DNA of 64,000 nucleotides from an uncultured Christensenella sp. (GCA_949284695.1 CASDWJ010000045.1:41871-105870), one strand, 5' to 3'. Positions 5,334-44,295 are shown, counted from the first letter of the stretch. Numbers and translations are program-made. Notes: generated by a model from the letters alone, not told the origin.

Positions 5334-6713
5334 TCAGGCGGCTTCTCCCGACTGCGCGGACGAAAAATACTGCGTCGCCTGCAAAAAGCACGGGTCTTCT
5401 GCCATATAATAGCGTCCCGACGCATCCGTCTCTATATCGGGAGTAAGTCCCGAGCCGTGTATATTGACTTCAAACACTGTCTCGCCGTTCTTCTGCGTGG
5501 GGATATAATACTTGCCGTTGGTGATGTAAAGCTCGTATTTTCCGCCCATATACTCTATGACGATCTGCGCAACGCCCTTGCCGTAGGTCTTCTCGCCTAT
5601 CGACTTTATGCCGCAGTAATTGGCAAGCGTCGCTGTCAGGAGCTCGGACGAAGAAGCCGAAGAACCGTTGACGAGTACTACACACTCGAAGCCTTCGACC
5701 TCGTCGTACAGATTGACAGACTTGAGCTGAGTACCGTCGAGGTCGCTCGAATAGGAAGTCTGCGTATAGAAATAGGTCTCCGCCATGTCGCCGCCGCCCT
5801 CGTTGTAGACGTACTTCGCCATCGGAATGCCGTCCGACGTGCCGTCCTGACTGACGAAATAGGACGCTATAAAACCGCATATCATCGTTGAGCCGCCGCC
5901 GTTTCCTCTGAGGTCAAGCACGAGTTTGTCGGGTTTGTCCTCGTCTGCGAGGAACGCGCTGACCGCAGTCGCAAAGTCGTCGGGAGCGGTATCGCCGAAC
6001 TCCTTGAGCTTGATATAACCCACGTCGGAAGGAAGCCCGGTGACCTCGCTGTCGAGGTAGTACGCTACGGGCGAATGGTACATCTCTTTTTGTATCACAA
6101 AAGTATAAGTCGGCTGTATTTCGCTCGCAGAATTAGGACGGGTCACGACAAGTTCTATCGTGTCTCCTACGTTGGAAAGTATCTGCGAAAACGCGTTGTA
6201 ATTGAGGTGTTGCACCTTTTGCCCGTTGATCGAGATCACTTCGTCGCCAACCATAAGGCTCTGACTGCCCTCATAACCGCCCGACAGCACGTTTTTAGCC
6301 TTGGACGCGGGCGATCCCGGCGCGACCTCTGTGATAAAGTAATTGCAGTAGTCGTTGTATGTGAACGTCACTCCTGCCGACATCGTTCTCATCCCCGTGG
6401 GAGAGGACGCGACCAAACCCGTATAGGGATCGACGCTGCCCGCGATCGCCGCCGCGACCGTGTACTGGAACTGCTCCCAGTCTATATCGTCGATATAATA
6501 TTTGTTGAGCGCTTCGAGCACCGTCTTGACCATGGGCATTTCGCTGTCGACCGTTTTGCTTCTGCCGTAAGCAACGCCGCCGAAAAACGCAAGCCCCGCG
6601 ACCACCGCGACGATGAGCACGACGACGATCGCAAAAGTGAGCGTCTTTTTCTTTGACGGTTTTTTCTCTGAGGGATACTCTGTGTAAATATCCTTTTCTT
6701 CAAACATATCCAT
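5334..6713 (-). CDS. S41 family carboxyl-terminal processing peptidase with PDZ domain, N-terminally membrane anchored
   Basis: N-terminal TM helix, a PDZ-like segment (GDEVISINGQKV), and the S41 motifs DLRGNGGGS and GEKTYGKG. Confidence 0.85.
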   Translation of the reverse strand: MDMFEEKDIYTEYPSEKKPSKKKTLTFAIVVVLIVAVVAGLAFFGGVAYGRSKTVDSEMPMVKTVLEALNKYYIDDIDWEQFQYTVAAAIAGSVDPYTGLVASSPTGMRTMSAGVTFTYNDYCNYFITEVAPGSPASKAKNVLSGGYEGSQSLMVGDEVISINGQKVQHLNYNAFSQILSNVGDTIELVVTRPNSASEIQPTYTFVIQKEMYHSPVAYYLDSEVTGLPSDVGYIKLKEFGDTAPDDFATAVSAFLADEDKPDKLVLDLRGNGGGSTMICGFIASYFVSQDGTSDGIPMAKYVYNEGGGDMAETYFYTQTSYSSDLDGTQLKSVNLYDEVEGFECVVLVNGSSASSSELLTATLANYCGIKSIGEKTYGKGVAQIVIEYMGGKYELYITNGKYYIPTQKNGETVFEVNIHGSGLTPDIETDASGRYYMAEDPCFLQATQYFSSAQSGEAA

Positions 6714-9126: not shown

Positions 9127-10053
9127 ATCTGTAATATTATAAAATATTTATCCCCCATATGCAACAAAATAAAAAAGTTTGTGCGCGCATATTTATTTCG
9201 CATATAATTCCTGCACGCTTTTGGCTGTCGCTCCTCAAGAAAATCAAGGCGGTCGAAAATTTTTATCCGGTCACGACTGCGCCTTGAAATATGTTGATAC
9301 TAAATAATAATTGATAATAATTGATACTAATTGATTATATTTTACAAATTACGTCATTTTATTTACATTTTCACCGCTTTGCCGTTCAGTTCAACCGTCT
9401 TGTCAAATGCGGATGCTTCGGCAAAACAGCTTACGTTCATACTTTAAAAGCCAAGCAATAGATCCGCTGAGAGCGACACAGAACACACAGAACAAGCAAG
9501 CTGCGAGCAAGAACCTGCTCAAGCTGCACCTGCGCCGTAAAACGGTGTGCGAGCCGCTAAAAGACCGTCTCTGCCAAGCCATAATTTATGCACAAACAAC
9601 GGTGAATCGGGCGAGCAACCCACAATGCAAGCTACTTGCAAAGAGAACCTCTCAGACCGCATCCCCCACAATACAACAATGCGTAAACCGAGCACAGAGC
9701 GTCTCGGTGAAGCGCAAATAATCGCATGTCACGTATTATCAGGCGCGCAACCCAAAACCAAGCGACCTGCAAGCATGAGACCCGAGTAAAAAACAATAAC
9801 ACACCCCGCATACGAGAGTCACACAAAGAGAGTCGGATAAAACAGCATGGCAAAGCGATGAGCTCACAATACAAAGCAAGAGATTTCGAAGCCGCTAAAT
9901 AACCCGCAGAACAATATTGACCCGCAAAAATTACCGCTTTCTATAAGTTTATTATTCTGTATAATCATATACCCGCGCCCTTGACGCGTTGCTCGCGGTC
10001 TACGCTTTTTAGTGCAAAAATTTTACCGTTTTGTCAATATGTATGCCGTGCGT

Positions 10054-17267: not shown

Positions 17268-18257
17268 TCAGGCGTTGTCGGTCGCCGCGTCGTTATCGGA
17301 TTTTGCGCTTGCCTTCTTCACTCCCGCCTCGTACGCGTTGATAACGCCGTATATCTGCTTGCGGAAATATGCGCTCATCATTATCAGGAACGCGCCGACC
17401 ACGCTGATCGCTCCGTCCGGGAACACGTACAGCGCGTTGTAGGTGAAAGAATAAGTCCAGGCATTGCCGAAGCCGTAATCAGCCGCGTACTCTCCGAAGA
17501 ATACCGCGCCCGAGATCACATGGCAGAAGTATCTGAAACAAATACCCGCGAGAATGCCGAGAGAAAGCGCAACTCCGTCTCTGAACCTGTCGGGAATAGC
17601 GGAAATCTTTGCAAACAACTTTCTGAACAGACCGCCGCAAAGTCCCACCATCGCAAACGCGAGCGGATAATCGAGTATGTACTGCACGGGGTGAACGATC
17701 CAAGGATCCTGCACGGATTGCAGCAGACCGTAGATAAAACCGCACATAACGCCTTTTCTTATGCCGAACATATAGGAATAAAGAGCTATCGGAAGAAGCG
17801 AAAAGAGGGTTATCGACCCGCCGTAAGGCGCCTTGAACAGTCTGATATAAGAGAGTCCGAAAGCGAGCGCTATGCAGACCGCCGCATATACGATAGAGGT
17901 CGTATGCGCTCTGCCCGTGTGCTTCCTGGTATCGATCATCATAAACACGACGAAAAGTCCGATAACGAATATCGCAAACAGCGCAATCAGCAATATCTGA
18001 TACTTTTCGGTGTACGTCTCGCCCGATTTGAAATCGAGCACGACGTTGACGATCGCCACCACAACCGCATAGAGAAGCGCAACGCCTGTGCAGACGAGCG
18101 AAGCGATCTTCATCTTGTCGCGCTTGAGGAAAAACGTCAGCGCAAGCGCAACGATGATGACGCCCAGCAGGATAAGACCCACGCAGAGCGACGTGCCGCG
18201 GAAATCGTTGAAATTGAAATAATTTTCGTAATCCGCGCTCAACAGATAATTGAACAT
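17268..18257 (-). CDS. thiT: ECF-type thiamine transporter S-component ThiT with a ~125-aa N-terminal membrane extension
   Basis: The C-terminal ~200 aa are ThiT-like (PYGGSITL, GIRKG, HPVQYILDYPLAFAMVG). A TPP riboswitch lies directly upstream. Confidence 0.75.
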   Translation of the reverse strand: MFNYLLSADYENYFNFNDFRGTSLCVGLILLGVIIVALALTFFLKRDKMKIASLVCTGVALLYAVVVAIVNVVLDFKSGETYTEKYQILLIALFAIFVIGLFVVFMMIDTRKHTGRAHTTSIVYAAVCIALAFGLSYIRLFKAPYGGSITLFSLLPIALYSYMFGIRKGVMCGFIYGLLQSVQDPWIVHPVQYILDYPLAFAMVGLCGGLFRKLFAKISAIPDRFRDGVALSLGILAGICFRYFCHVISGAVFFGEYAADYGFGNAWTYSFTYNALYVFPDGAISVVGAFLIMMSAYFRKQIYGVINAYEAGVKKASAKSDNDAATDNA

Positions 18258-18299
18258 AAAAAAACTCCTTAAGCTAAGGAGAACTCGAAAATACCTGAA

Positions 18300-18383
18300 A
18301 GATTTTTGCTTCCTTTCGCAAGTATTAACTTGACCAAGTTCAAAGGGTATTTCTCAGCCGATCTTATCAGCACCCCTAGCTTT
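18300..18383 (-). promoter_or_regulatory. TPP (THI-box) riboswitch
   Basis: Minus strand reads CUAGGGGUGCUGAUAAGAUCGGCUGAGAAAUACCCUUUGAACUUGGUCAAGUUAAUACUUGCGAAAGGAAGC, matching the conserved GGGGUGC...CUGAGA...ACCCUUUGAAC...UAAUAC...GGAA core. The downstream hairpin CUCCUUA-GCU-UAAGGAG (18266-18282) sequesters the thiT SD. Confidence 0.9.
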
Positions 18384-18389
18384 GACTTT

Positions 18390-18418: not shown

Positions 18419-18487
18419 TTGTTTGGCAACGCAAAAATCGACATTTTGCGCCGCCGTATATGTTCCGCTGTTTTAACCCCTTGCAAG

Positions 18488-21289
18488 TCAACTGCGCTCC
18501 CATTTGTAGTGCACATATTCGTCACATAACAAATATGCCGCTTGAGCGGGGTATGACAAGTCATCAGTAAATATCTCAGCATCATCCACTTTCCAACCGT
18601 TCACATGTGCAAAATATACTTTTTTAAGTGAAATGCATCCTTTAAATGCCCAATTGCCGATACTCTTTACTCCCTCGCATATTGTGACTTCTTTAAGCGA
18701 ACTGCATCCATCAAATGCACACTCCCCGATACTTATTACCCCTTTCGGTATCGTTACCTTTTCAAGAGACGTGCAGTTATAAAATGCATATTCTCCTATA
18801 TCTGTCAGGCTGTCCGGCATTTTTATTTCTTTAAGCGAACTGCATCCATCAAATGCCCAATTGCCGATACTCTTTACTCCCTCGCATATTGTGACTTCTT
18901 TTAGCAAACTGCATCCATCAAATGCCCAATTGCCGATACTCTTTACTCCCTCGCATATTGTGACTTCTTTAAGTGAATTGCATCCGACAAATGCCCCCTT
19001 CCCGATACTTATTACCCCTTTCGGTATCGTTACCTTTTCAAGAGACGTGCAGTTATAAAAAGCATCTTTTCCTATATCTGTCAGGCTGTCCGGCATTTTT
19101 ATTTCTTTAAGCGAACTGCATCCATCAAATGCCCATCCCCCGATACTCTCAACTCCCTCGCATATTGTGACTTCTTTAAGCGAACTGCATCCATCAAATG
19201 CCCAATTGCCGATACTTATTACCCCTTTCGGTATCGTTACCTTTTCAAGAGACGTGCAGTTATAAAAAGCATCTTCTCCTATATCTGTAAGGCTGTCCGG
19301 CATTTTTATCTCTACAAGCGAACTGCATCCTTTAAATGCCCCCTTCCCGATACTTTTTACCCCTTTGGGTATCGTTACCTTTTCAAGAGACGTGCAGTTA
19401 TAAAAAGCATCTTTTCCTATATCTGTCAAGCTGTCCGGCATTTTTATCTCTTTTAGCAAACTACATCCGCTAAATGCCCACTCTCCGATACTTTTTACAC
19501 CTTCAGGAATTACGATATTTTTTACACCTGATTTTCTGATAAAAATTTTAATGATCAACGACCAATGCTCATCCCCACAATGAGAAAGCAGTTCGTCAAG
19601 TTTATCACGATCTGCGACGTCACCGAACTCGTCCAAGACTTTGTCACAGAAATATCTTGCCGTAAGATATTCTCCGTAACTTTCGTGGAAGAACTTGTTT
19701 TCCCGAAAGTTGTAGAACTCTCTGAAAACGATATACTCCGTCAATTCTTCGCCCGTTATCCTTTCCTCCGTCTTTCCATTTTCTTTTTTGAGAAGTTTGT
19801 CAAAGAATTTTTTTGCAATTTCTCTCGTCACTATTTTGCCTTTACCGACTGCAATATGCCTGTAATATGCAAACTCAGACAGCATTTTGACTATATTTGC
19901 TGACATTGCTTCCCCGAACTTCAGACTCTCGCTTTTGAACATAACGTCCGTTATATCGTCAAACATTCCGATCTCAGAATCGCTGATCTTACCTGTCATA
20001 GCATACAGAGATACGATCTGCGTCAGCATAAACGGGTTGCGTTTTATATCGTCGCCAAGACGATTGACCTGGTCTTTCAGATCATCTGAAACGTCATTTA
20101 ATTTTTTGTTCGTCAGACCTCTTTCCTCAAGCTCTCCAAACAGCTTATCGCAATATTCGCTGACATTGTCGTCGTTGAATTCTTGCAGTTCACAAACGCA
20201 AGCGCCGTAAAACATCTTTGCCGCCGTCTGTCCTCTGTCCGTAACGATTATTTTGACTTTGTTGCCGCAAAATTTCTGCAATTCTTCAATGTGTCCGACA
20301 AATGCCCGCGTGTTGTTCTGCAACGCTATTTCGTCCATAGCGTCCAATGCAATAACGACGTCGTTGCCTCTTTTTATTCTGTCATCAATGAGCGTCGCGA
20401 AATTTTCCATCGTATAGAAGGACTCGCCTATCTCGCATGTTTCGATGAATTTTTTGAAAAGATACTGCAACAGCACGGGGTATTTCTCGTTTTGAGACAC
20501 GTTAGCAATGCAATATTTAGCCGCGGCGGTACAAGTAGCCGTAAGCACCAACGCTCCGTCTATATTCTTGTATTCGTTGATGATCTGTCCGATAAAACAG
20601 CTTTTGCCGCTTCCCGCCTTGGCTGTGATAAACAATACGTGGTTATTCGTTTTATCGGCAAGATCTTTTACTCTGTCGTAAATCTCGTCTTTGTATTTAA
20701 GAGACCTCGGGATATATATTTTATCGAAATCGACCTTGGTTTTTTCGGTGTCGAGCAGATCTACGCCGAGAAGCCGCGTTATATCAATACCTCTGCCCGA
20801 AGCGGATTTGTCTGCATAGATACGGCTCATTCTGTTGACTATTAGGTCTTTGACTTTATTGAATAAACACGAAAGGTCTCCTTCGCATAATTTGTCCGGA
20901 TTGCAAAACAAACAATTTGTTTTCAATATCTCATCGACTTTTATCTCTTTAAATGCTTCTATATATTTTTTGCCCGGACAAACTATAACGGTACGGTTGG
21001 CAAAATTATTCCCGACCTTCTCTCTCCACGACCTGATCTCATTTATAACATAACTATTATCTTTTGTGAGCAGATTATCAGTCAATAACAGCAAAAACAC
21101 TCCACCCTTTTTTGCCGCTTCTTCGCTCCATTGTTCAAAATAACCGGAACAATGATCTTCTGAAAAACAAACCGTGATACCTTTTTTATTGAGAAAACGT
21201 ACTATTTGTTTTGCAGGCTTATCATCTACACCCGTCCAGCTTATAAAAACGTTTTTTTTGATAATATCTTCACGTGATTCTTCACTCAT
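18488..21289 (-). CDS. TIR-NACHT(STAND NTPase)-LRR protein; candidate bacterial NLR-like anti-phage defence protein
   Basis: aa 13-~140 are TIR-like (VFISWTG, GITVCFSED, GGVFLLLLT, SYVINEIRSW with Glu84). The NTPase has Walker A AKAGSGKS (223-230), NACHT-style Walker B VVIALDAMDE (311-320) and RNPFML (417-422). aa ~592-890 hold 13 x 23-aa BspA/LRR_5-type repeats. There is no signal peptide or TM segment. The gene is much more AT-rich than its neighbours. Confidence 0.8.
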   Translation of the reverse strand: MSEESREDIIKKNVFISWTGVDDKPAKQIVRFLNKKGITVCFSEDHCSGYFEQWSEEAAKKGGVFLLLLTDNLLTKDNSYVINEIRSWREKVGNNFANRTVIVCPGKKYIEAFKEIKVDEILKTNCLFCNPDKLCEGDLSCLFNKVKDLIVNRMSRIYADKSASGRGIDITRLLGVDLLDTEKTKVDFDKIYIPRSLKYKDEIYDRVKDLADKTNNHVLFITAKAGSGKSCFIGQIINEYKNIDGALVLTATCTAAAKYCIANVSQNEKYPVLLQYLFKKFIETCEIGESFYTMENFATLIDDRIKRGNDVVIALDAMDEIALQNNTRAFVGHIEELQKFCGNKVKIIVTDRGQTAAKMFYGACVCELQEFNDDNVSEYCDKLFGELEERGLTNKKLNDVSDDLKDQVNRLGDDIKRNPFMLTQIVSLYAMTGKISDSEIGMFDDITDVMFKSESLKFGEAMSANIVKMLSEFAYYRHIAVGKGKIVTREIAKKFFDKLLKKENGKTEERITGEELTEYIVFREFYNFRENKFFHESYGEYLTARYFCDKVLDEFGDVADRDKLDELLSHCGDEHWSLIIKIFIRKSGVKNIVIPEGVKSIGEWAFSGCSLLKEIKMPDSLTDIGKDAFYNCTSLEKVTIPKGVKSIGKGAFKGCSSLVEIKMPDSLTDIGEDAFYNCTSLEKVTIPKGVISIGNWAFDGCSSLKEVTICEGVESIGGWAFDGCSSLKEIKMPDSLTDIGKDAFYNCTSLEKVTIPKGVISIGKGAFVGCNSLKEVTICEGVKSIGNWAFDGCSLLKEVTICEGVKSIGNWAFDGCSSLKEIKMPDSLTDIGEYAFYNCTSLEKVTIPKGVISIGECAFDGCSSLKEVTICEGVKSIGNWAFKGCISLKKVYFAHVNGWKVDDAEIFTDDLSYPAQAAYLLCDEYVHYKWERS
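18620..19516 (-). repeat. Array of 13 tandem 69-nt units encoding 23-aa leucine-rich repeats, arranged in higher-order near-identical blocks
   Basis: The unit consensus is V-T-I-(P/C)-x-G-V-x-S-I-G-x-x-A-F-x-G-C-S-S-L-K-E, alternating with IKMPDSLTDIGxDAFYNCTSLEK. Units 18831-18899 and 18900-18968 differ at 2 of 69 nt. Confidence 0.9.
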
Positions 21290-21607
21290 AACACGGCTTC
21301 CTCAAACAGTTTATTATCAACAATTATATAATACCTTTATTGATATATTTTGTCAATTCAAAAGCAAAATTTAATTTCAAAGCTCGTTTTTTAATATATC
21401 CCGAAAATTAAACCAAAGCACTAAAATAAGCGCGAAAACTACTGCAAAATTGCCAAAATCTGCGTTGATTCAAGCAAAAACGCGCGTTTTGCGAAAAGAC
21501 AAAAAAAGACTCGCAAAAAACTGAATGTCACAAAAATTGCCGAAGCGACCGACGAAAACACGTTGCGAAGCGTTTTGAGCGAGAGGATTTGCGGGTAAAC
21601 GCGAAGA

Positions 21608-21646
21608 GCCTCGGGGGTAATACTCTTGCGGTATTACCGTCGAGGC
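21608..21646 (-). terminator. Strong hairpin downstream of pgi (probable terminator with a weak U-tract)
   Basis: gcctcg...ggtaatac-tcttgc-gtattacc...cgaggc, about 14 bp of pairing. It lies between the pgi stop and the upstream region of the TIR-NACHT-LRR gene. Confidence 0.45.
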
Positions 21647-21713: not shown

Positions 21714-23129
21714 TTAAATAATATACTTATTCAACTTCTGCGGAGCGTTGGCGAGTTCTGCCCTCTTTTCGTCGTAACCGGGACGACCGAGGAGCGCGTA
21801 GGTCGCGTTCTTGCCTTCTTCGACGCCGGGCTGGTTGAAGGTATCGATACCCATCAGCGCGCCTGCGTAAGCGGTCTTAAGCATGAAGAACATCAGGAGT
21901 TCGCCGAGCGTGAACTCGTTGAGCACGGGGAGCATGATGGTATGATTGAGTTTGCCCGCCTTGGTCAACGCGTATTCGGTCGCCTTTCTTTCTGCGGTGA
22001 TGAGTTCGCTCATCGTATGACCGCAGAGGAAGTTGACGTTGGGGAAATCCTCGCAACCGTCGGGGATCTTCACTTCTGCGCGGTAATTGTCGACGCCGAT
22101 AAAGGTGATGACCTTGTCGAACGGACCTTCTGCATACAACTGCACCTGACTGTGCTGATCTGTAACGCCGAGCGACTTGACGGGGGTCTGACCCTTATTG
22201 CAAGCGGTGCCGTCGAGGTTCTTGTTCTTGCCGAGGCTTTCCGCCCACAGCTGAGCGTACCAGTCTGCGACGAACTTGAGACCGTCTGCATACGGCATCA
22301 TGACGGAAATGTTCTTGCCTCTCTTCATCGCCATATACTGCATAAGCGCGGCGAGGAGCGCGGGGTTTTTCTTGACGTTGGGGTTGCTACACTGCTCGTC
22401 CATATAACGCGCGCCCTGCAAGAGACCCTTGATGTCGATATTGACGACCGCCGCGGGGAGCAGACCGACGGGGCAAAGCTCGCTGAATCTGCCGCCGACG
22501 CCGTCGGGGATAAAGAAGGTCTTGTAGCCCTCTTTCTGCGCGATCTTGATGAGGTTGCCGCTGTTGGCGGACGTGGTGGCTATGATGTGATCTTTAGCCT
22601 TGTCGCCCAGCTTCTTTTTGAGAATATCGTTGATGATGAGGTACTGGGTCATCGTCTCGGAAGTGCTGCCCGACTTGGTGATGACGTTGAACATGGTCTT
22701 TTCGACGTCGATGACGTCAAAGAGCGCCTGCATTCTTTCGGGGTCTACGTTGTCCTCGACGTAGAACTTGGGACCCTTGCGCTTGCGCTTGGGCAGGTCG
22801 TTGTAATGCAGGTGGCAGATAGCCTGGAACGCGGCGATGGGGCCGAGCGCACTGCCGCCGATGCCGAGCACTACGAAATATTCGAAGTTCTTGCGGATCT
22901 GCTTGGCGGTGGCGAGGATATCTTCGACGACATCGTCCTGATTGTACGGAAGCTCCGTCCAACCCATCATGCCCTTACCTCTGCCGGCGGTGACAGCCGC
23001 GAAAGCCGCCTCTACTTCTTCTACGTAAGAAGCGATCTGTCTCTCGGAAAATCCTTCGTGACCGACGGACTTACTCATCATATTGTTGAAATCCACGCGT
23101 AGTCTGAGTTCTTTTTTGTTGTAACGCAT
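21714..23129 (-). CDS. pgi: Glucose-6-phosphate isomerase
   Basis: A 471-aa Firmicute-type PGI (VVLGIGGSALGP, ITKSGSTSET, and the GVTDQHSQVQLY region). Confidence 0.92.
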   Translation of the reverse strand: MRYNKKELRLRVDFNNMMSKSVGHEGFSERQIASYVEEVEAAFAAVTAGRGKGMMGWTELPYNQDDVVEDILATAKQIRKNFEYFVVLGIGGSALGPIAAFQAICHLHYNDLPKRKRKGPKFYVEDNVDPERMQALFDVIDVEKTMFNVITKSGSTSETMTQYLIINDILKKKLGDKAKDHIIATTSANSGNLIKIAQKEGYKTFFIPDGVGGRFSELCPVGLLPAAVVNIDIKGLLQGARYMDEQCSNPNVKKNPALLAALMQYMAMKRGKNISVMMPYADGLKFVADWYAQLWAESLGKNKNLDGTACNKGQTPVKSLGVTDQHSQVQLYAEGPFDKVITFIGVDNYRAEVKIPDGCEDFPNVNFLCGHTMSELITAERKATEYALTKAGKLNHTIMLPVLNEFTLGELLMFFMLKTAYAGALMGIDTFNQPGVEEGKNATYALLGRPGYDEKRAELANAPQKLNKYII

Positions 23130-40192: not shown

Positions 40193-40199
40193 GTTATAG

Positions 40200-40325
40200 A
40201 ACACTTTGAGGGCGGGTGCAATTCCCCACCGGCGGTGAAAGTCCGCAAACGCTGCAAATAACTCAATATGCGGCGCCGAAAGGGTGAAAATCCCTTACCG
40301 ACGGTACAGTCCGGATAGGAAAGGA
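40200..40325 (+). promoter_or_regulatory. FMN riboswitch (RFN element)
   Basis: GAGGGCGGGUGCAAUUCCCCACCGGCGGUGAAAGUCCGC...GGUGAAAAUCCCUUACCGACGGUACAGUCCGGAUAGGAAAGGA matches the RFN core. Its 3' strand overlaps the ribU SD. Confidence 0.9.
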
Positions 40326-40332
40326 TGTTTTT

Positions 40333-41106
40333 ATGACCAATAAGTTTCACTATTCGCGAGCGCGTTATATCGCGTTTACCGCAATTTTCGCAGCACTGTC
40401 CACGGCACTTATGTTTCTGAGCTTCGGCGTACCCTTTATGCCGTCTTTTCTCAAACTCGACTTCTCTGAAGTACCCGCGCTTATAGCTTCATTTTCGCTC
40501 GGTCCCGTTGCGGGAATGATAGTCTGTCTCGTCAAGAACCTGATCAATATGACGGCGAGCACCACGGGTTGCATCGGCGAGATCTCCAACTTCCTGCTCG
40601 GCTGTATGTTCGTCGTGCCCGCAGGTCTTATCTACAAATACAAGCGCAACCGCATAGGCGCGCTGATAGGCTCGCTCGTCGGCGCTGTGGTCATGGGACT
40701 CGGCAGTCTGCTGACCAATTATTATATCGTGTATCCTATATATTACAACTTCATGCCTTATGAAGTAATACTCGGCATGTATCAGGCTCTCTATCCCAAA
40801 GTGTACGACCTGTGGGATTGTCTGTTCGTATTCAATCTGCCCTTCACCGTGCTCAAGGGTCTGATGTGCGCGGTCGTGACGTTTGTGATATACAAGCCGA
40901 TCAGCATTGTGATGAAATCCGTTGAAGGCAGATTCGTGACGATAAAGCGCAAAAAAGAATATCAGCTCAACAAGATACGCGTTGCGGCTGTGATCATACC
41001 GTCGGAAAACGCGCCCGCACAGGATAGCGCGCCCGACCGGGCAACACAAGAGACGGCAACAGACGCGACAAGCGCGGTCGCGACGGAAAATCTCACGCGA
41101 TCCTGA
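40333..41106 (+). CDS. ribU: ECF-type riboflavin transporter S-component (RibU/FmnP) with a hydrophilic C-terminal tail
   Basis: A membrane protein directly behind the FMN riboswitch, with the FLKLDFSEVPALIASF motif typical of RibU. Confidence 0.8.
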   Translation: MTNKFHYSRARYIAFTAIFAALSTALMFLSFGVPFMPSFLKLDFSEVPALIASFSLGPVAGMIVCLVKNLINMTASTTGCIGEISNFLLGCMFVVPAGLIYKYKRNRIGALIGSLVGAVVMGLGSLLTNYYIVYPIYYNFMPYEVILGMYQALYPKVYDLWDCLFVFNLPFTVLKGLMCAVVTFVIYKPISIVMKSVEGRFVTIKRKKEYQLNKIRVAAVIIPSENAPAQDSAPDRATQETATDATSAVATENLTRS

Positions 41107-41149
41107 TTAGACAAAAAATAAATATTTATAAAAATTATGTCAATCATTA

Positions 41150-41178
41150 TTGACAAAAGCCGATTATTTTAGTAAAAT
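41150..41178 (+). promoter_or_regulatory. Candidate promoter for the tRNA genes
   Basis: -35 TTGACA (41150-41155), a 17-nt spacer and -10 TAAAAT (41173-41178), about 15 nt before tRNA-Thr. Confidence 0.5.
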
Positions 41179-41193
41179 GAATTAGCTTGATAA

Positions 41194-41269
41194 GCTGATG
41201 TGGCTCAGTCGGTAGAGCAATTCACTCGTAATGAATAGGTCGGCGGTTCGATTCCGCCCATCAGCTCCA
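41194..41269 (+). tRNA. tRNA-Thr (anticodon CGU), CCA encoded
   Basis: Manual cloverleaf: acceptor GCTGATG/CATCAGC, D arm GCTC...GAGC, anticodon stem ATTCA/TGAAT with loop CT-CGT-AA, and T arm GGCGG-TTCGATT-CCGCC. Confidence 0.9.
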
Positions 41270-41271
41270 GA

Positions 41272-41300
41272 AAACTTACGCTTGCCGTAAGTTTTTATTT
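41272..41300 (+). terminator. Terminator-like hairpin between the two tRNA genes
   Basis: Stem acttacg/cgtaagt with loop cttgc, followed by ttttattt and abutting the first base of tRNA-Pro. Confidence 0.55.
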
Positions 41301-41377
41301 CGAGGTGTAGCGCAGTTTGGTAGCGCGCTTGGTTCGGGACCAAGAGGCCGCTGGTTCAAATCCAGTCACCTCGACCA
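41301..41377 (+). tRNA. tRNA-Pro (anticodon CGG), CCA encoded
   Basis: Acceptor CGAGGTG/CACCTCG, anticodon stem CTTGG/CCAAG with loop TT-CGG-GA, and T arm GCTGG-TTCAAAT-CCAGT. Confidence 0.9.
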
Positions 41378-41400
41378 CGCGACAGCTCAGCGTAACGAGC

Positions 41401-41445
41401 AAAAAAAAGAAGATATGCAAAACCGCATATCTTCTCTTTTTTTTG
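41401..41445 (+). terminator. Rho-independent terminator after tRNA-Pro
   Basis: Stem gaagatatgc/gcatatcttc (41409-41418 and 41425-41434), with an A-run before it and a T-run after it. Confidence 0.85.
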
Positions 41446-41467
41446 CATTTTTGCCTTCGCTATCTCG

Positions 41468-41494
41468 GTCGAGGTGACTTGTCCCGTTTGAATT
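41468..41494 (-). repeat. Inverted partial copy of the tRNA-Pro 3' end
   Basis: gtcgaggtgact (41468-41479) is the exact reverse complement of tRNA-Pro 41364-41375. A degenerate T-arm remnant (tttgaa) follows. Confidence 0.8.
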
Positions 41495-41541
41495 AGTGAC
41501 GCTCACTTCGTTCGCTATTCCGTCGCGCACATTAGTGCGTT

Positions 41542-41580
41542 CCTTACAAATCCAGTCACCTCTTGGTCTACTACCAAGCG
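41542..41580 (+). repeat. 39-nt direct repeat, copy 1 (contains 16 nt identical to the tRNA-Pro 3' end)
   Basis: Sequence ccttacaaatccagtcacctcttggtctactaccaagcg. The stretch caaatccagtcacctc equals tRNA-Pro 41357-41372. Confidence 0.85.
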
Positions 41581-41773
41581 TCGCTCTTAATTCAGGGCTC
41601 CTAAAAAGCTAAGCATAGCGTGCTTTTTGGGATTAAGGAGGCACGGAGCGCTAAGGTGAACATTGCTCCTGCAATGTGAACACAATGCCGACTGTGCCGA
41701 CGCGGCTTAGGACCAAGATGCCGCTGCTGACGCTTATATCATAATGATTTATAAATAATGTACTTCTGCTCCT

Positions 41774-41993
41774 CCCACTCGCAATATAATTGCTTCGCCG
41801 CTTTGGCTAAAAACGTGCCACCGGCACGTTTTCTTAACGCGTCGACCCCCGCTCGCAATATAATTGCTTCGCCGCTTTGGCTAAAAACGTGCCACCGGCA
41901 CGTTTTCTTAACGCGTCGATCCCCGCTCGCAATATAATTGCTTCGCCGCTTTGGCTAAAAACGTGCCACCGGCACGTTTTCTTAACGCGTCGC
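41774..41993 (+). repeat. Three tandem 74-nt direct repeats, each with a TATAAT box and a terminator-like hairpin
   Basis: Units start at 41778, 41852 and 41926. Units 1 and 2 differ at 1 of 74 nt. Each contains gcaaTATAATtgc and aaaacgtgcc-acc-ggcacgtttt. Confidence 0.9.
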
Positions 41994-41994
41994 G

Positions 41995-42033
41995 CCTTAC
42001 AAATCCGTTCACCTCTTGGTCTACTACCAAGCG
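41995..42033 (+). repeat. 39-nt direct repeat, copy 2
   Basis: Sequence ccttacaaatccgttcacctcttggtctactaccaagcg, with 2 mismatches to copy 1 located 453 nt upstream. Confidence 0.85.
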
Positions 42034-42280
42034 GCACCCTATCGCTTGACCCGATCTCTCCCGCTCAATTTAGCGTTACGTTTAATCGGAAGCTTTTCTA
42101 TCATCTACTTACTGTTATACAGAACAAATCCGTCTTGATTTCGTGTATTTTTCCTACGTTCAGACAATGTTATTATCTTTCACGGATACTCCATGTCTTC
42201 TTCGCTGACGTTGATTTGTCAGACAGATCGTAGTACCGTGATTTTTATCTGAAATAATCTGTTTTTTCAATTTTTTTCAA

Positions 42281-42314
42281 TTACAAACATAATATTATAG
42301 ATATTATTTGTAAA
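42281..42314. promoter_or_regulatory. AT-rich imperfect palindrome, candidate operator upstream of the XRE gene
   Basis: Arms ttacaaacataatat-tatag-atattatttgtaaa. Confidence 0.3.
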
Positions 42315-42461
42315 CAATCGGTTTTGTGATATATTTAAGAATACCGCAAAAACCTTATTTCACTTCAAACTTTTCTGCAGTCCGCGCCGCTAGACATTTT
42401 ATCTGGTAACAAATTATTGCCCGATGCATACTTTAAAATTTTTAAATGGCTGACGTGACAT

Positions 42462-42662
42462 ATGGACACAAGATTTTGCAACAATCTCAAAGCAGCGCGA
42501 AAAGCGTGTCATATGACCCAAAAACAAGTAGCCGATTGTCTCGGTGTCGTCGAAAGCTGCTATGCCAACTATGAGCAAGGCAGAACGGAACCGTGCATCG
42601 ACATACTGCGTCAGCTTGCACGCCTGTTTTCTGTTACGCTCGATGAACTTATAAACGACTGA
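42462..42662 (+). CDS. XRE-family helix-turn-helix transcriptional regulator (66 aa)
   Basis: NLKAARKACHMTQKQVADCLGVVESCYANYEQGRTEPCIDILRQLARLFSVTLDELI is a classic Cro/C1-type HTH. Confidence 0.85.
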   Translation: MDTRFCNNLKAARKACHMTQKQVADCLGVVESCYANYEQGRTEPCIDILRQLARLFSVTLDELIND

Positions 42663-42693
42663 ACCCTTATGGTGTGTCGTAAGGGGTCATTTT

Positions 42694-43185
42694 TTACTGT
42701 TTTATTGACGATACGCGCGCAAAATACAACGTATACTCCTCACCTACCGTCACGGTAAGTTCGCAAAGCTGCGGCACGTCGTATTCGTCATCGGCATCAG
42801 TATCAGACGGATAGACGTTGTTCGTTTTCGCAACGTACACAGCCGTACCGCTACTGCCGTCGTCGTATTTGACAGAATATCTTTCCGTACCGTCCGCGCC
42901 CGTTGACGCCTCCGTCAACTGCCCTTTCAGTGTTTTACCGCCGTCGGCGTATACTATGACGATCTCGCCTTCGCGAGAAACCGTACAGGTCACAGCAATT
43001 CTTTTAACGTTTGCTTCGTATGTATAATCCTCTCCGCACGCGATAACTTCTCCGTGTTCGTTAAGTGCTACAGCCATTTCCCATGTAGAATCGAGCAATG
43101 CGTCATTATCGCACGCCGTGAAAGCCGCAACGAATACGACTGCAACTATAACGAGCATAAATACCGCTATAAATCTTTTCTTCAC
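42694..43185 (-). CDS. Hypothetical lipoprotein
   Basis: GTG at 43185 lies 6 nt after a GGAGG RBS. The signal peptide is VKKRFIAVFMLVIVAVVFVAAFTAC with lipobox FTAC. I recognise no family. Confidence 0.6.
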   Translation of the reverse strand: MKKRFIAVFMLVIVAVVFVAAFTACDNDALLDSTWEMAVALNEHGEVIACGEDYTYEANVKRIAVTCTVSREGEIVIVYADGGKTLKGQLTEASTGADGTERYSVKYDDGSSGTAVYVAKTNNVYPSDTDADDEYDVPQLCELTVTVGEEYTLYFARVSSIKQ

Positions 43186-43362
43186 GATCGACCTCCGCCC
43201 TGCCTGTTGTATGTTTTTACTCAATGTTGTTGACCGCATTTCGTTTCTTCGGCAACAAGACGTTTTCCGCCTGAAATATAACACAGATATTCCCATTGGT
43301 CAATATGCAAAAACCGCCCTCTCTTTGAAGAAAGGACGGTTACTTTGTCAAATATACGTTTG

Positions 43363-44295
43363 TCAGATAGTTCTCTGTTTGATCGAAGGATCAACGACGT
43401 TGAGCACGTCGATATAATATCTCTTGCCGACCGTGCGGTAGTATATCACGAGATCGCAAGCCTGAGCGAGCGCGAGCGATACTGATATGGCAAAAAGAGT
43501 GCCGACGAAGAAGGTAAACACGCTGACCGCCACCGTCAGTCCGAGCCATGCAACATAATAAATCAGATACAGCCCGAACGCATAGGAAAATCTCTGCTTC
43601 AGCAGACTCATCGCCTTTTTGAGTCCGTCTACCACGCCGAGACCGTCCGCGACCATTGCCGGTATCCAGCCGAACAGAAGCGCGCGGCGAACAGCCATTG
43701 CAACTACGAATATCGCGACCGCGGAAGCGAGTCCGACAAGCGGCGCCACCTTGAAAAGCGTTGCAAAACTCAACCAGTACAGCAAAGCCACCACCGCCAT
43801 AAATCCGATCGTGATCGCCGTGTAAAGAAGCGAATATCTCATCGCCTTCCTGAAGTTGACGATCAGATTAGAACTGAAGCCGAATTTACTGTTGGAACTC
43901 ATATGGTGATTGATGACGTCAGACACGCAATACTGTCCCCACGAGAAAAACACGACGTAAAGCAGATAGATAAGGACGAGCCAGACGATAGACAGATTGA
44001 TCTGCAGGCTGTTGTTTCTGATTATCTCACCCGCCTGATCGAATTTGTCGGACAGCATCTCGTAAGCCATTGCCTGATTTTCCGGGTTGCCCTGCAAAGC
44101 CTCGTGCACGTATGCTCTGACCGCATTGCCGAGGTCGAGTTCGTTCATATTGCTACGCAGACCCGAAAGCGTCGGATAAATCGCGCAGACTGTCAGCACG
44201 CTGAACAGGAACGTGACCACGATGAGGAACACGAGCAGTTTGTAAACTATCGAAAATCTCGAAGTCAGTATACTAAGGGAATGTTTGAAAGACAT
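43363..44295 (-). CDS. Hypothetical polytopic membrane protein
   Basis: A 310-aa ORF with several hydrophobic helices, only 3 nt from the upstream gene. No recognised motif. Confidence 0.6.
   Translation of the reverse strand: MSFKHSLSILTSRFSIVYKLLVFLIVVTFLFSVLTVCAIYPTLSGLRSNMNELDLGNAVRAYVHEALQGNPENQAMAYEMLSDKFDQAGEIIRNNSLQINLSIVWLVLIYLLYVVFFSWGQYCVSDVINHHMSSNSKFGFSSNLIVNFRKAMRYSLLYTAITIGFMAVVALLYWLSFATLFKVAPLVGLASAVAIFVVAMAVRRALLFGWIPAMVADGLGVVDGLKKAMSLLKQRFSYAFGLYLIYYVAWLGLTVAVSVFTFFVGTLFAISVSLALAQACDLVIYYRTVGKRYYIDVLNVVDPSIKQRTI

What the first reader, a model, noticed from the sequence alone, without database searches (positions are those of the whole stretch)
18488..21289. Cytoplasmic TIR-NACHT-LRR protein: a plant-TNL-like architecture in a bacterium and candidate single-gene NLR-type defence system
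The sequence shows a 933-aa ORF made of three modules.
(1) aa ~13-140 carry TIR landmarks: VFISWTG at the first strand, GITVCFSED, GGVFLLLLT, and SYVINEIRSW. Glu84 sits where NADase-active TIR domains carry their catalytic Glu.
(2) The central STAND NTPase has Walker A AKAGSGKS (Lys229). Its Walker B, VVIALDAMDE (311-320), has the hhhhD-x-x-DE form typical of NACHT rather than NB-ARC. An RNPFML motif follows at 417-422.
(3) The C-terminus has 13 tandem 23-aa repeats fitting the BspA-type LRR (Pfam LRR_5-like) pattern IP.GV.SIG..AF.GC.SL.
There is no signal peptide or TM helix, so this normally surface-associated LRR type is placed in the cytoplasm.
From established knowledge, bacterial STAND/NACHT proteins (Avs, bNACHT) defend against phage by sensor-triggered oligomerisation of an N-terminal effector, and TIR effectors deplete NAD+ or make signalling nucleotides.
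I infer that this gene combines a TIR effector, a NACHT switch and an LRR sensor. That is the same logic as plant TNL receptors. As far as I know, characterised bacterial NLR-like proteins mostly use TPR, WD40 or bespoke sensors. I cannot verify here whether this exact fusion has been described.
Basis: partly seen in the sequence, partly recalled or inferred. Interest (0 to 1): 0.88.

Follow-up and report, generated by a model that had tools for sequence, protein, structure and literature searches.

The report
Bacterial TIR–NACHT–LRR immune-receptor-like gene
A gut Christensenellaceae bacterium carries a 933-residue cytoplasmic protein built, like a plant or animal innate-immune receptor, from a TIR enzyme, a NACHT switch and leucine-rich repeats; it belongs to an unnamed, untested family and is probably a single-gene anti-phage system.

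Summary
Window 18488..21289 (minus strand) encodes a 933-aa protein with an N-terminal TIR domain, a NACHT-type STAND NTPase, 13 BspA-type (LRR_5) repeats and a small cap. It has no signal peptide or TM helix.

Fold searches recover TIR domains and full-length NLRs. The invariant Glu84 aligns with the catalytic Glu position of the plant RPS4 TIR. The Walker B D-A-M-D-E fits the published NACHT signature D[GAS]hDE.

This is not a one-off fusion. About 50-60 clusters (50% identity) share the architecture, and all placed members come from gut Clostridia.

In the window's clade the gene is a ~3-kb low-GC cassette with its own promoter, in a fixed slot between pgi and the TPP-riboswitch/thiT. Alleles are 37-71% identical while pgi is 96-99% identical. 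LRR copy number varies, and the TIR segment has about 10x the synonymous divergence of the flanks.

A defence role (LRR sensing, NACHT oligomerisation, TIR NAD+ consumption) is the best inference but is untested. No defence island, phage, plasmid or PADLOC link was found.

LRR sensors and TIR effectors are both already catalogued among bacterial NACHT proteins. I therefore rate it a new variant of a known kind, with moderate interest.

The parts
18488..21289 (-). 933-aa ORF encoding the TIR-NACHT-LRR_5 protein; the stop codon is at 18488-18490
   Evidence: ORF listing. Identical protein P0001 recovered in the homologue search. Pfam domain hits.
21328..21356 (-). Sigma-70-like promoter (TTGACA, 17-nt spacer, TATTAT; 11 of 12 consensus matches) about 40 nt upstream of the ATG
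   Evidence: Consensus scan. A consensus match alone is not proof of function.
21297..21303 (-). Ribosome-binding site GAGGAAG, 7 nt before the ATG
   Evidence: Read directly from the sequence.
20795..21289 (-). TIR domain, aa 1-165. Family-invariant residues are F15, S17, W18, T19, C47, G49, W54 and E84.
   Evidence: TIR_2 27.0 bits; 34 of 35 family members hit TIR_2. The TIR-only AF2 model has pLDDT 90.8. Its top ~30 Foldseek hits are all TIR domains. The best PDB profile hit is the RPS4 TIR.
21038..21040 (-). Codon of Glu84, the putative catalytic glutamate of the TIR NADase site
   Evidence: Invariant in 35 divergent members. Aligns with the first Glu of RPS4 'CVRELEKI'.
19526..20794 (-). 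Linker plus NACHT-type NOD, aa 166-588 (NBD, helical domain and winged-helix domain)
   Evidence: NPHP3_N is above its gathering score. NACHT hits 31 of 35 members. The best PDB sequence hits are NOD2 (5irl) and NLRP1. The full-length fold matches RPP1, NRC, NLRP and NLRC4.
20600..20623 (-). Walker A motif AKAGSGKS, aa 223-230, containing Lys229
   Evidence: Read from the sequence. G226, G228 and K229 are invariant.
20330..20359 (-). Walker B motif VVIALDAMDE, aa 311-320. D316-A-M-D-E320 fits the NACHT signature D[GAS]hDE.
   Evidence: Read from the sequence. D316, D319 and E320 are invariant. The signature definition comes from Kibby et al..
20234..20242 (-). T350-D-R352, a sensor-1-like 'TxR' motif after strand beta4
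   Evidence: T350 and R352 are invariant in 35 members. The sensor-1 assignment rests on my own knowledge of NACHT motifs.
19655..19696 (-). Winged-helix motif FFHESYGEYLTARY, aa 532-545, with invariant His535
   Evidence: H535, E540 and A544 are invariant. The motif aligns with NLRP1 'SFAHLCLQEFFAAMSY'.
18629..19525 (-). Thirteen 23-aa BspA-type LRR_5 repeats, aa 589-887. At DNA level the period is 69 bp, with higher-order units of 138, 207 and 276 bp at 88-92% identity.
   Evidence: LRR_5 E=1.9e-117. Tandem repeat finder. Repeat register and per-position entropy. Model pLDDT above 90. Structural match to 4fs7 at 38% identity.
18491..18628 (-). C-terminal cap, aa 888-933: a degenerate repeat followed by a helix ('...DLSYPAQAAYLLCDEYVHYKWERS'), conserved among the close alleles
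   Evidence: Alignment A1. Secondary structure of the AF2 model.
18439..18456 (-). Hairpin followed by a T-run just after the stop codon; terminator-like
   Evidence: Consensus scan.
18452..21444 (.). Approximate extent of the variable cassette. DNA outside it stays 76-92% identical to the syntenic loci. Inside it, identity is 74-80% in L001/L004, and in L003/L005 only ~300 bp of the TIR region aligns, at 66%.
   Evidence: blastn of the window region against L001, L003, L004 and L005. Gene GC 0.407 against flank GC 0.508.
21714..23129 (-). pgi, the upstream flank of the slot and not part of the system; 96-99% identical across loci
   Evidence: Pfam PGI. tblastn synteny table.
17268..18387 (-). 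TPP riboswitch (18294-18387) and thiT (17268-18257), the downstream flank of the slot and not part of the system
   Evidence: Rfam RF00059 at 71.1 bits. Pfam Thia_YuaJ.

Best explanation
The gene encodes a cytoplasmic, self-contained NLR-like receptor of the bacterial NACHT (bNACHT) kind.

Proposed mechanism:
- At rest, the protein is a nucleotide-bound, auto-inhibited monomer.
- The C-terminal solenoid of 13 BspA-type LRR_5 repeats acts as the ligand-binding surface. The ligand is most likely a protein of an infecting phage or other mobile element, or a host protein that such an element modifies.
- Ligand binding releases the NACHT module (Walker A Lys229, Walker B D316/D319/E320, WHD His535), which then oligomerises.
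- Oligomerisation brings the N-terminal TIR domains together, forming active sites around Glu84 that consume NAD+. Because no partner effector gene is linked, the likeliest output is NAD+ depletion with growth arrest or abortive infection.

Population behaviour:
- In this Christensenellaceae lineage the gene is a ~3-kb horizontally exchanged cassette with its own promoter, held in one chromosomal slot between pgi and thiT.
- Its alleles diversify by recombination (a mosaic TIR segment) and by expansion and contraction of the near-identical LRR repeat units.

Shown versus inferred:
- Shown here: domain identities, invariant catalytic residues, the absence of export signals, family-wide conservation of the architecture, and the hypervariable cassette behaviour.
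- Inferred: the ligand, the oligomerisation, NADase activity and the immune role.
For: Architecture:
- Pfam hits on the protein and the 35-member census: TIR_2 34, NACHT 31, LRR_5 33.
- The full-length AF2 model (pLDDT 76.5; LRR above 90) matches full-length NLRs, including the TIR-NLRs RPP1 (7crc) and WRR4A (9qlv), NRC resistosomes, NLRP7/9/14 and NAIP/NLRC4. It also matches the BspA-type LRR crystal structure 4fs7 at 38% identity.

TIR domain:
- The TIR-only model has pLDDT 90.8.
- Its top ~30 Foldseek hits are all TIR domains: RPP1, RUN1, SARM1/TIR-1, TIR-STING, MyD88, and AbTir at TM 0.65/0.78 with rmsd 2.9 A.
- The TIR-only profile's best PDB hit is the RPS4 TIR (E=1.2e-3), and the invariant Glu84 aligns with the Glu of 'CVRELEKI'.

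NACHT module:
- D316-A-M-D-E320 matches the D[GAS]hDE signature.
- The best PDB sequence hits are NOD2 (E=1.7e-5) and NLRP1, and the WHD His motif aligns.
- The only plasmid hits are annotated NACHT proteins.

Cytoplasmic location:
- No hydrophobic segment in the protein.
- The TIR strand betaA starts at about aa 10-17 in 33 of 35 members.

Conflict-gene behaviour:
- The same slot holds alleles 37-71% identical while pgi is 96-99% identical.
- The cassette has sharp borders.
- Gene GC is 0.37-0.43 against 0.49-0.51 in the flanks for the four Christensenellaceae loci.
- LRR copy number varies among alleles, and the DNA repeat units are 88-92% identical.
- Repeat positions 8, 11, 15, 16, 19 and 22 are variable against an invariant L/IG/AF/C scaffold.
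- dS is about 1.6-2.0 in TIR, 0.35 in the NBD and 0.17 in pgi. Omega is 0.2-0.45 against 0.03 for pgi.
- A sister family keeps the TIR-NACHT core but swaps the sensor for N-terminal Sel1 repeats.

Independent transcription unit: own promoter and terminator-like hairpin.

Precedent: bacterial NACHT proteins with this tripartite logic protect against phage (Kibby et al.).
Against: - There is no experimental evidence for any step.
- No known defence gene lies next to the gene in any of the five contexts examined: the window/L001-L005 slot, L006, L084, L085 and L086.
- No PADLOC model matches.
- No relative was found in IMG/VR viral contigs or in annotated phages.
- Among close relatives I found no 'empty' pgi-thiT site, so presence/absence polymorphism is not shown.
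- Outside Christensenellaceae the gene's GC is close to that of its flanks.
- On the window protein alone, TIR_2 and NACHT score below Pfam's gathering thresholds.
- Omega is below 1 in every domain, so positive selection is not demonstrated.
- The inter-domain geometry of the model is unreliable (pTM 0.51).
Confidence: 0.6

Rival explanations
1. The receptor logic is the same, but the TIR domain makes a signalling nucleotide (a cADPR isomer or similar, as in Thoeris or plant TIRs). That signal would activate an unlinked effector elsewhere in the genome instead of depleting NAD+.
For: The TIR fold matches both NAD+-depleting and signal-producing TIRs equally well: RUN1, RPP1, AbTir, TIR-STING and SARM1. 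There is a weak ThsB-like PADLOC hit at E=0.022.
Against: No ThsA/SLOG/SAVED-type partner or any conserved neighbour exists in five independent contexts. The cassette moves as a single gene.
Confidence: 0.15
2. It is a non-immune STAND regulator: a cytoplasmic signalling ATPase that senses an endogenous cue such as a metabolite, cell-envelope state or developmental signal. It would control growth or programmed cell death without reference to phages.
For: The gene always lies among housekeeping or metabolic genes. It sits at a conserved position in its clade. It has no defence-island, phage or plasmid association. Omega is below 1 throughout.
Against: Alleles at the same slot are 37-71% identical while pgi is 96-99% identical. 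The gene is low in GC, its TIR segment is mosaic and its repeat number varies. These are features of conflict genes, not of conserved regulators. The gene is absent downstream of pgi in all relatives with PGI at 85% identity or less. A TIR with an intact catalytic Glu is an unusual output for a housekeeping regulator.
Confidence: 0.15
3. It is an exported BspA-like surface or secreted protein whose TIR domain modulates the animal host's TLR signalling, as the Tcp/Btp family of bacterial TIR proteins does.
For: LRR_5 repeats are typical of surface proteins. The top LRR structural matches are 'cell surface' proteins of gut bacteria (4fs7, 4gt6, 4fdw). NCBIfam gives partial adhesin hits (HupY/LrrG). 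The host organism is a gut commensal. The TcpB/BtpA TIR appears among the fold hits.
Against: There is no signal peptide, TM helix, lipobox or sorting signal in the protein or in 35 family members, and the TIR begins about 10 residues from the N-terminus. An ATP-driven NACHT switch with intact Walker motifs makes little sense outside the cell. The adhesin model scores are far below their cut-offs (168 against 1250 bits).
Confidence: 0.04

Closest known systems
Bacterial NACHT (bNACHT) NLR-related anti-phage proteins, especially the LRR-bearing bNACHT16 of Vibrio campbellii (Kibby et al., bioRxiv 10.1101/2022.07.19.500537; published in Cell 2023)
   Same: Both have the tripartite layout of N-terminal effector, central NACHT and C-terminal repeat sensor. 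Both carry the D[GAS]hDE Walker B and the WHD histidine. Both are single-gene systems. LRR is a listed sensor type and TIR a listed effector type.
   Different: I found no entry combining TIR+NACHT+LRR, and none with LRR_5, in the held part of their Table S1; the table may have been cut when stored. The sensor here is a BspA-type LRR_5. The family is confined, as far as seen, to gut Clostridia. None of its members has been tested. No PADLOC model matches.
Plant TIR-NLRs (TNLs) such as RPP1, ROQ1, WRR4A and RPS4
   Same: The domain order is the same: TIR, NOD, LRR. The full-length fold matches RPP1 (7crc) and WRR4A (9qlv). The TIR fold and the catalytic Glu position match RPS4, RPP1 and RUN1. 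Both form allelic series with variable LRRs.
   Different: The NOD is NACHT, not NB-ARC. NB-ARC scores 17.3 bits, below its 23.5 cut-off, and the Walker B is DxxDE. The LRR is the 23-aa BspA type, not the plant type. There is no C-JID/post-LRR domain. The resemblance is convergent or combinatorial, not orthology.
Sel1-repeat-TIR-NACHT proteins (unnamed; P0073, P0077, P0087, P0088, P0090, P0105)
   Same: They are the nearest out-group recovered by the exhaustive profile search and share a homologous TIR-NACHT core.
   Different: Their repeat array is of the Sel1 type and lies N-terminal to the TIR. They have no LRR_5.
TIR_2+NACHT+FGE-sulfatase proteins (for example GAK60834.1, Candidatus Vecturithrix granuli) listed in Kibby et al. 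Table S1
   Same: N-terminal TIR_2, central NACHT and a C-terminal antigen-receptor-type sensor.
   Different: The sensor is a single FGS domain instead of an LRR solenoid, and the phylum is different.
BspA-like LRR_5 surface proteins of gut bacteria (for example BACOVA_04585, PDB 4fs7; FAEPRAA2165_01021, 4gt6)
   Same: The same 23-aa repeat type. 4fs7 is 38% identical over 315 columns with rmsd 3.1 A. LRR_5 scores E=1.9e-117.
   Different: Those proteins are exported or surface-located and have no TIR or NTPase. Here the repeats follow a cytoplasmic TIR-NACHT and there is no export signal.
Avs (antiviral STAND) proteins
   Same: STAND NTPase with an N-terminal effector and a C-terminal sensor, and abortive-infection logic (established knowledge; Avs papers listed).
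   Different: No PADLOC Avs model matches. The NTPase is of the NACHT clade. The sensor is an LRR, not the TPR-like domain of Avs.

Membership tests
NACHT clade of STAND NTPases (bNACHT sensu Kibby et al.) | Walker A P-loop GxxxxGK[ST] | tested here: met
   The sequence reads A-K-A-G226-S-G-K229-S230. G226, G228 and K229 are invariant in 35 members.
NACHT clade of STAND NTPases (bNACHT sensu Kibby et al.) | Walker B signature D[GAS]hDE, which separates NACHT from other STAND NTPases | tested here: met
   The sequence reads D316-A317-M318-D319-E320. D316, D319 and E320 are invariant. The definition is quoted from the paper.
NACHT clade of STAND NTPases (bNACHT sensu Kibby et al.) | Profile match to NACHT-type models above the curated threshold | tested here: met
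   For the window protein, NPHP3_N scores 33.3 bits against a 24.8 cut-off, while PF05729 NACHT scores only 17.3 against 26.7. At family level, 31 of 35 members hit NACHT, best 3.4e-11. The best PDB sequence hits are NOD2 and NLRP1.
NACHT clade of STAND NTPases (bNACHT sensu Kibby et al.) | Winged-helix extension carrying the conserved His motif (FxHxxxxE[FY]xxA; the NLRC4 H443 equivalent) | tested here: met
   The motif is F-F-H535-E-S-Y-G-E540-Y-L-T-A544. H535, E540 and A544 are invariant. It aligns with NLRP1 'SFAHLCLQEFFAA'.
NACHT clade of STAND NTPases (bNACHT sensu Kibby et al.) | Protects bacteria against phage | not testable with these tools
   This needs expression of the gene and phage challenge.
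TIR domain (NAD+-consuming type) | TIR fold: flavodoxin-like, with strands betaA-betaE and helices alphaA-alphaE | tested here: met
   The TIR-only AF2 model has pLDDT 90.8 and pTM 0.87. Its top ~30 Foldseek PDB hits are all TIR domains.
TIR domain (NAD+-consuming type) | Pfam TIR/TIR_2 match above the gathering score | tested here: inconclusive
   The window protein scores 27.0 bits against a 28 cut-off. At family level 34 of 35 members match, best 5.9e-12. The sister family scores 37-50 bits.
TIR domain (NAD+-consuming type) | Catalytic glutamate at the position of RPS4 E88 / SARM1 E642 | tested here: met
   Glu84 is invariant and aligns with the Glu of RPS4 'CVRELEKI'. That this RPS4 residue is the catalytic Glu is established knowledge, not something tested here.
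TIR domain (NAD+-consuming type) | NADase activity | not testable with these tools
   This needs a biochemical assay.
BspA-type LRR (Pfam LRR_5) proteins | Tandem ~23-aa repeats matching LRR_5 and forming a solenoid | tested here: met
   E=1.9e-117. There are 13 in-register repeats. Model pLDDT is above 90. 4fs7 matches at 38% identity.
BspA-type LRR (Pfam LRR_5) proteins | Export or surface anchoring: a signal peptide, lipobox or sorting signal | tested here: not met
   The N-terminus has no hydrophobic segment and the maximum KD19 is 1.34. The same holds across 35 members. The test was hydropathy only; no dedicated signal-peptide predictor was available.
Plant TNL (TIR-NB-ARC-LRR) | NB-ARC-type NOD | tested here: not met
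   NB-ARC scores 17.3 bits against a 23.5 cut-off. The Walker B is the NACHT-type DxxDE. The best sequence matches are NOD2 and NLRP1.
Plant TNL (TIR-NB-ARC-LRR) | Plant-type LRR and a C-JID/post-LRR domain | tested here: not met
   The repeats are LRR_5. No C-JID hit appears in the Pfam scan. The C-terminus is a 46-aa cap.
Avs / other catalogued defence systems (PADLOC-DB v2) | Significant match to a defence-system protein model | tested here: not met
   The best hits are E=6.6e-4 (a RecD P-loop over 50 residues) and E=0.022 (ThsB over 35 residues). Neither is meaningful.
Thoeris (ThsB TIR + ThsA) | A ThsA-type effector encoded adjacently | tested here: not met
   Neighbours in all contexts are housekeeping or metabolic genes.

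The most novel reading that the evidence does not exclude
This is the first recognised family of bacterial 'TNL-like' immune receptors, in which BspA-type LRR_5 solenoids serve as hypervariable intracellular pathogen sensors; until now these repeats were regarded as extracellular adhesin modules. In Christensenellaceae the receptor would be kept as an allelic series of exchangeable cassettes at one chromosomal slot. Alleles would diversify by LRR unit expansion and contraction and by TIR-segment recombination. That would be a bacterial counterpart of plant R-gene loci.
Probability: 0.4. Interest if true: 0.7.

Novelty: new variant of a known kind. Interest (0 to 1): 0.55.

Why it matters
If the function is confirmed, four things follow.

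- The complete TIR-NOD-LRR receptor logic, best known from plant TNLs, would be shown to have been assembled in bacteria on a NACHT chassis.
- BspA-type LRR_5 repeats, which are very abundant in gut microbes and usually read as surface adhesins, would be shown to work also as cytoplasmic recognition modules.
- The family would be a tractable single-gene system for studying how LRR solenoids recognise phage proteins, and how repeat-number variation and domain-level recombination create receptor diversity.
- It would flag a defence gene class that current tools miss in health-associated gut Clostridia (Christensenellaceae). PADLOC does not detect it, and NCBI names a family member only 'leucine-rich repeat protein'.

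Tried and rejected
- **PADLOC-DB scan:** no meaningful hit.
- **NCBIfam scan:** only partial LRR adhesin matches, far below their cut-offs.
- **Close-allele TIR+NOD profile (A2) against PDB sequences:** only P-loop noise. The more divergent profiles A4 and A5 were needed.
- **GTDB genome scan:** limited by its search patterns. It found only four loci, so it cannot be used to count carrier species.
- **Exact-sequence look-up of the window's PGI:** not on record.
- **Metagenome scan with PGI, looking for an empty pgi-thiT site:** only relatives with PGI at 85% identity or less had usable downstream flank. In those, synteny ends at pgi, so presence/absence among close relatives stays untested.
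- **Viral contigs and annotated phages:** no relatives.
- **Plasmids:** only distant annotated NACHT proteins.
- **Second indexed protein search with a divergent profile:** the candidate cap meant it added only three new family members.
- **Literature searches** for TIR-NACHT-LRR in bacteria, NACHT with BspA/LRR_5, and TIR-NACHT/TIR-STAND: nothing specific.
- **Diversity-generating retroelement:** considered and rejected. No reverse transcriptase or template repeat lies nearby, and the neighbours are housekeeping genes.
- **Adhesin reading:** considered and rejected for lack of any export signal.
- **Membership in plant TNLs:** considered and rejected because the NOD is NACHT, not NB-ARC.

Full report
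**1. Observation**

The window holds a 933-codon ORF on the minus strand at 18488..21289. The C-terminus consists of exactly 13 in-register 23-aa repeats (aa 589-887) followed by a 46-aa cap. No 19-residue window exceeds a Kyte-Doolittle mean of 1.34, and the N-terminus is charged, so there is no signal peptide or TM helix. The gene's GC is 0.407 against 0.508 in the 10-kb flanks.

The gene looks like an independent transcription unit:
- A near-consensus promoter (TTGACA-17-TATTAT) at 21356..21328.
- A GAGGAAG ribosome-binding site 7 nt before the ATG.
- A hairpin with a T-run just after the stop codon.

**2. Domain identities**

Pfam on the protein gives the following:
- LRR_5 at E=1.9e-117.
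- NPHP3_N at 33.3 bits (cut-off 24.8).
- TIR_2 at 27.0 bits (cut-off 28).
- NACHT at 17.3 bits (cut-off 26.7).
- NB-ARC at 17.3 bits (cut-off 23.5).

The two sub-threshold calls were settled at family level. An exhaustive HMMER search with a TIR+NOD profile found 738 proteins at E<=1e-3 and 60 at E<=1e-30. About 50 cluster representatives match the whole module at the N-terminus of proteins 1000-1900 aa long. Of 35 such members, 34 hit TIR_2 (best 5.9e-12), 31 hit NACHT (best 3.4e-11) and 33 hit LRR_5.

Residues invariant across these 25-53%-identical members include:
- In the TIR: F15, S17, W18, T19, C47, G49, W54 and E84.
- In the NOD: G226, G228, K229, D316, D319, E320, T350, R352, H535, E540 and A544.

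**3. Fold tests**

The full-length AF2 model has pLDDT 76.5 overall and above 90 in the LRR, with pTM 0.51. It matches BspA-type LRR crystal structures, with 4fs7 at 38% identity. It also matches full-length NLRs over ~950-1100 columns: RPP1 (7crc) and WRR4A (both TIR-NLRs), NRC2/3/4, a wheat resistosome, NLRP7/9/14 and NAIP/NLRC4.

A TIR-only model built on 23 divergent sequences has pLDDT 90.8 and pTM 0.87. Its top ~30 PDB matches are all TIR domains: RPP1, RUN1, SARM1/TIR-1, TIR-STING, MyD88, TLR1, and AbTir at TM 0.65/0.78 with rmsd 2.9 A.

At sequence level, the TIR-only profile's best PDB hit is the RPS4 TIR (E=1.2e-3). The invariant Glu84 aligns with the first Glu of 'WCVRELEKI'. From established knowledge, that is the catalytic Glu position of plant TIR NADases.

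**4. NACHT rather than NB-ARC**

Kibby et al. define NACHT by the Walker-B signature D[GAS]hDE. The protein has D316-A-M-D-E320.

The divergent TIR+NOD profile's best PDB sequence hits are rabbit NOD2 (5irl, E=1.7e-5, aligned from the P-loop to 'DGFDE') and NLRP1. NLRP1's 'SFAHLCLQEFFAA' aligns with the family's 'eFyHklflEYftA', which places His535 at the NLRC4 H443-type position. The only plasmid-borne matches are annotated NACHT proteins.

The protein resembles a plant TNL in layout but is not one.

**5. Organism and context**

Related loci come from Christensenellaceae and Christensenella MAGs (L004, L005), a 'Clostridiales bacterium' (L006) and Candidatus Limadaptatus stercoripullorum (L007). 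All are gut Clostridia.

In the window and in L001-L005 the gene occupies one slot, in the order MMPL, AP-endonuclease-like, pgi, [gene], TPP riboswitch-thiT, infC-rpmI-rplT. Across these loci PGI is 96-99% identical and IF3 94-99%. The gene's N-terminal 588 aa are only 37-71% identical.

DNA conservation of the flanks (76-92%) stops at about 21445-21616 upstream and resumes at 18451 downstream, which delimits a ~3-kb cassette. Relatives with PGI at 85% identity or less have neither the gene nor thiT after pgi. I did not find an empty site among close relatives.

More divergent family members are likewise lone genes among housekeeping or metabolic genes:
- L006 lies between uppP and a DegV-like gene.
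- L084 lies next to an AraC/fucose operon.
- L085 lies between mnmE/birA-like genes and rplJ-rplL, with an integrase about 1.5 kb further on.
- L086 lies next to an epimerase.

No known defence genes are adjacent in any of these contexts. No relatives were found in IMG/VR or annotated phages, and no PADLOC model matches.

**6. Evolutionary behaviour**

- LRR copy number differs widely among close alleles. Across the family the LRR core motif is counted 0 to 25 times per protein, and the versions in L005 and L006 are 1975 and 1896 aa long.
- The repeat DNA forms higher-order 138/207/276-bp units that are 88-92% identical, a substrate for unequal recombination.
- Within the 13 repeats, positions 1, 13, 14, 17, 18 and 21 (L, I, G, A, F, C) are invariant. 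Positions 8, 11, 15, 16, 19 and 22 are the most variable.
- The TIR occurs as two allele classes about 50% identical, while the adjoining NBD is 83-86% identical.
- Against L001 and L004, dS is 1.6-2.0 in the TIR, 0.35 in the NBD and 0.16-0.17 in pgi, so the gene is a recombinational mosaic.
- Omega is 0.22-0.45 across domains against 0.03 for pgi. This indicates purifying but much relaxed selection, and positive selection is not demonstrated.
- The GC deficit is 6-13 points in the Christensenellaceae alleles but only 1-2 points elsewhere. That suggests import into this lineage from lower-GC Clostridia.
- The nearest out-group keeps the TIR-NACHT core but carries N-terminal Sel1-repeat arrays. 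This is the sensor swapping expected of NLR-like proteins.

**7. Mechanism (inference)**

The most likely mechanism is an auto-inhibited cytoplasmic receptor. Its LRR_5 solenoid binds a phage or mobile-element-derived ligand, or a modified host ligand. The NACHT module then oligomerises, and the clustered TIR domains hydrolyse NAD+ through Glu84.

No partner gene is linked in any context, so NAD+ depletion with abortive infection is more likely than production of a signal for a separate effector.

I put about 0.95 on the structural identity and about 0.55-0.6 on the immune mechanism. The rivals are a signalling TIR with an unlinked effector, a non-immune STAND regulator, and an exported adhesin or immunomodulator. 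They are listed with their tests.

**8. Comparison with known systems and novelty**

Bacterial NACHT proteins are an established anti-phage family. Kibby et al. list LRR, TPR and HEAT repeats as 'antigen-receptor-type' sensors and TIR and SIR2 as NAD+-targeting effectors, and they tested the LRR-bearing bNACHT16.

The held part of their Table S1 contains TIR_2+NACHT+FGE-sulfatase and NACHT+LRR_8. It contains no TIR+NACHT+LRR string and no LRR_5; the file may have been cut when stored. Full-text searches found no paper describing TIR-NACHT-LRR in bacteria or NACHT fused to BspA-type repeats. NCBI names one family member only 'leucine-rich repeat protein, partial'.

I therefore classify this as a new variant of a known kind. 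It is a distinct, uncharacterised bNACHT family with a TNL-like domain order and an unusual cytoplasmic use of LRR_5. It is not a categorically new system.

Interest is moderate at 0.55. A specialist would find it noteworthy and easy to test, but not very surprising given the published combinatorial catalogue.

Noticed in passing
window 17268..18387 (-); L003 13120-14136; L005 16039-17133: The gene downstream of the cassette is thiT behind a TPP riboswitch (RF00059, 71.1 bits). ThiT is only 52-55% identical in L003/L005, although PGI (96%) and IF3 (94%) on either side are conserved. thiT is therefore a second divergence outlier at this locus. One possibility is a surface-exposed transporter under phage-receptor pressure, or co-replacement together with the cassette.
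   Followed up: partly
window 21445..21636; L001 ~5510-6077; L004 ~9300-9903: A ~190-bp intergenic element between pgi and the cassette promoter is single-copy in the window. In L001 and L004 it is present three times in tandem, at 85-92% identity.
   Followed up: no
proteins P0073, P0077, P0087, P0088, P0090, P0096, P0105 (no locus fetched): A sister architecture: long N-terminal Sel1-repeat arrays (4-19 copies) followed by TIR_2 and NACHT. P0096 matched only Sel1 and TIR_2 in the Pfam scan. The same TIR-NACHT core carries a different repeat sensor on the opposite side.
   Followed up: partly
L005 9992..15919 (+); L006 9998..15688 (+): Giant versions of the same architecture, 1975 and 1896 aa. 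They carry very long LRR_5 arrays and, in the broader family, an extra conserved helical region between the NOD and the LRR.
   Followed up: partly
window 40199..40330 (+): An FMN riboswitch (RF00050, 87.6 bits) lies directly upstream of the ORF at 40333..41106.
   Followed up: no
window 41194..41377 (+) and 41000..44000: tRNA-Thr(CGU) and tRNA-Pro(CGG) are followed by a low-GC patch (~0.455-0.459 against ~0.54). It could be another acquired segment. Further low-GC patches lie at ~8-11 kb and ~23-26 kb.
   Followed up: no
protein P0019 (NCBI nr): A family member is named only 'MAG: leucine-rich repeat protein, partial [Clostridiales bacterium]' in NCBI. The TIR and NACHT modules of this family go unnoticed in routine annotation.
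   Followed up: no
L085 16172..17732 (+): In one divergent member's locus, a phage-type integrase and a TnpV gene lie ~1.7 kb downstream, beyond rplJ-rplL. This is the only mobile-element gene seen near any family member.
   Followed up: no
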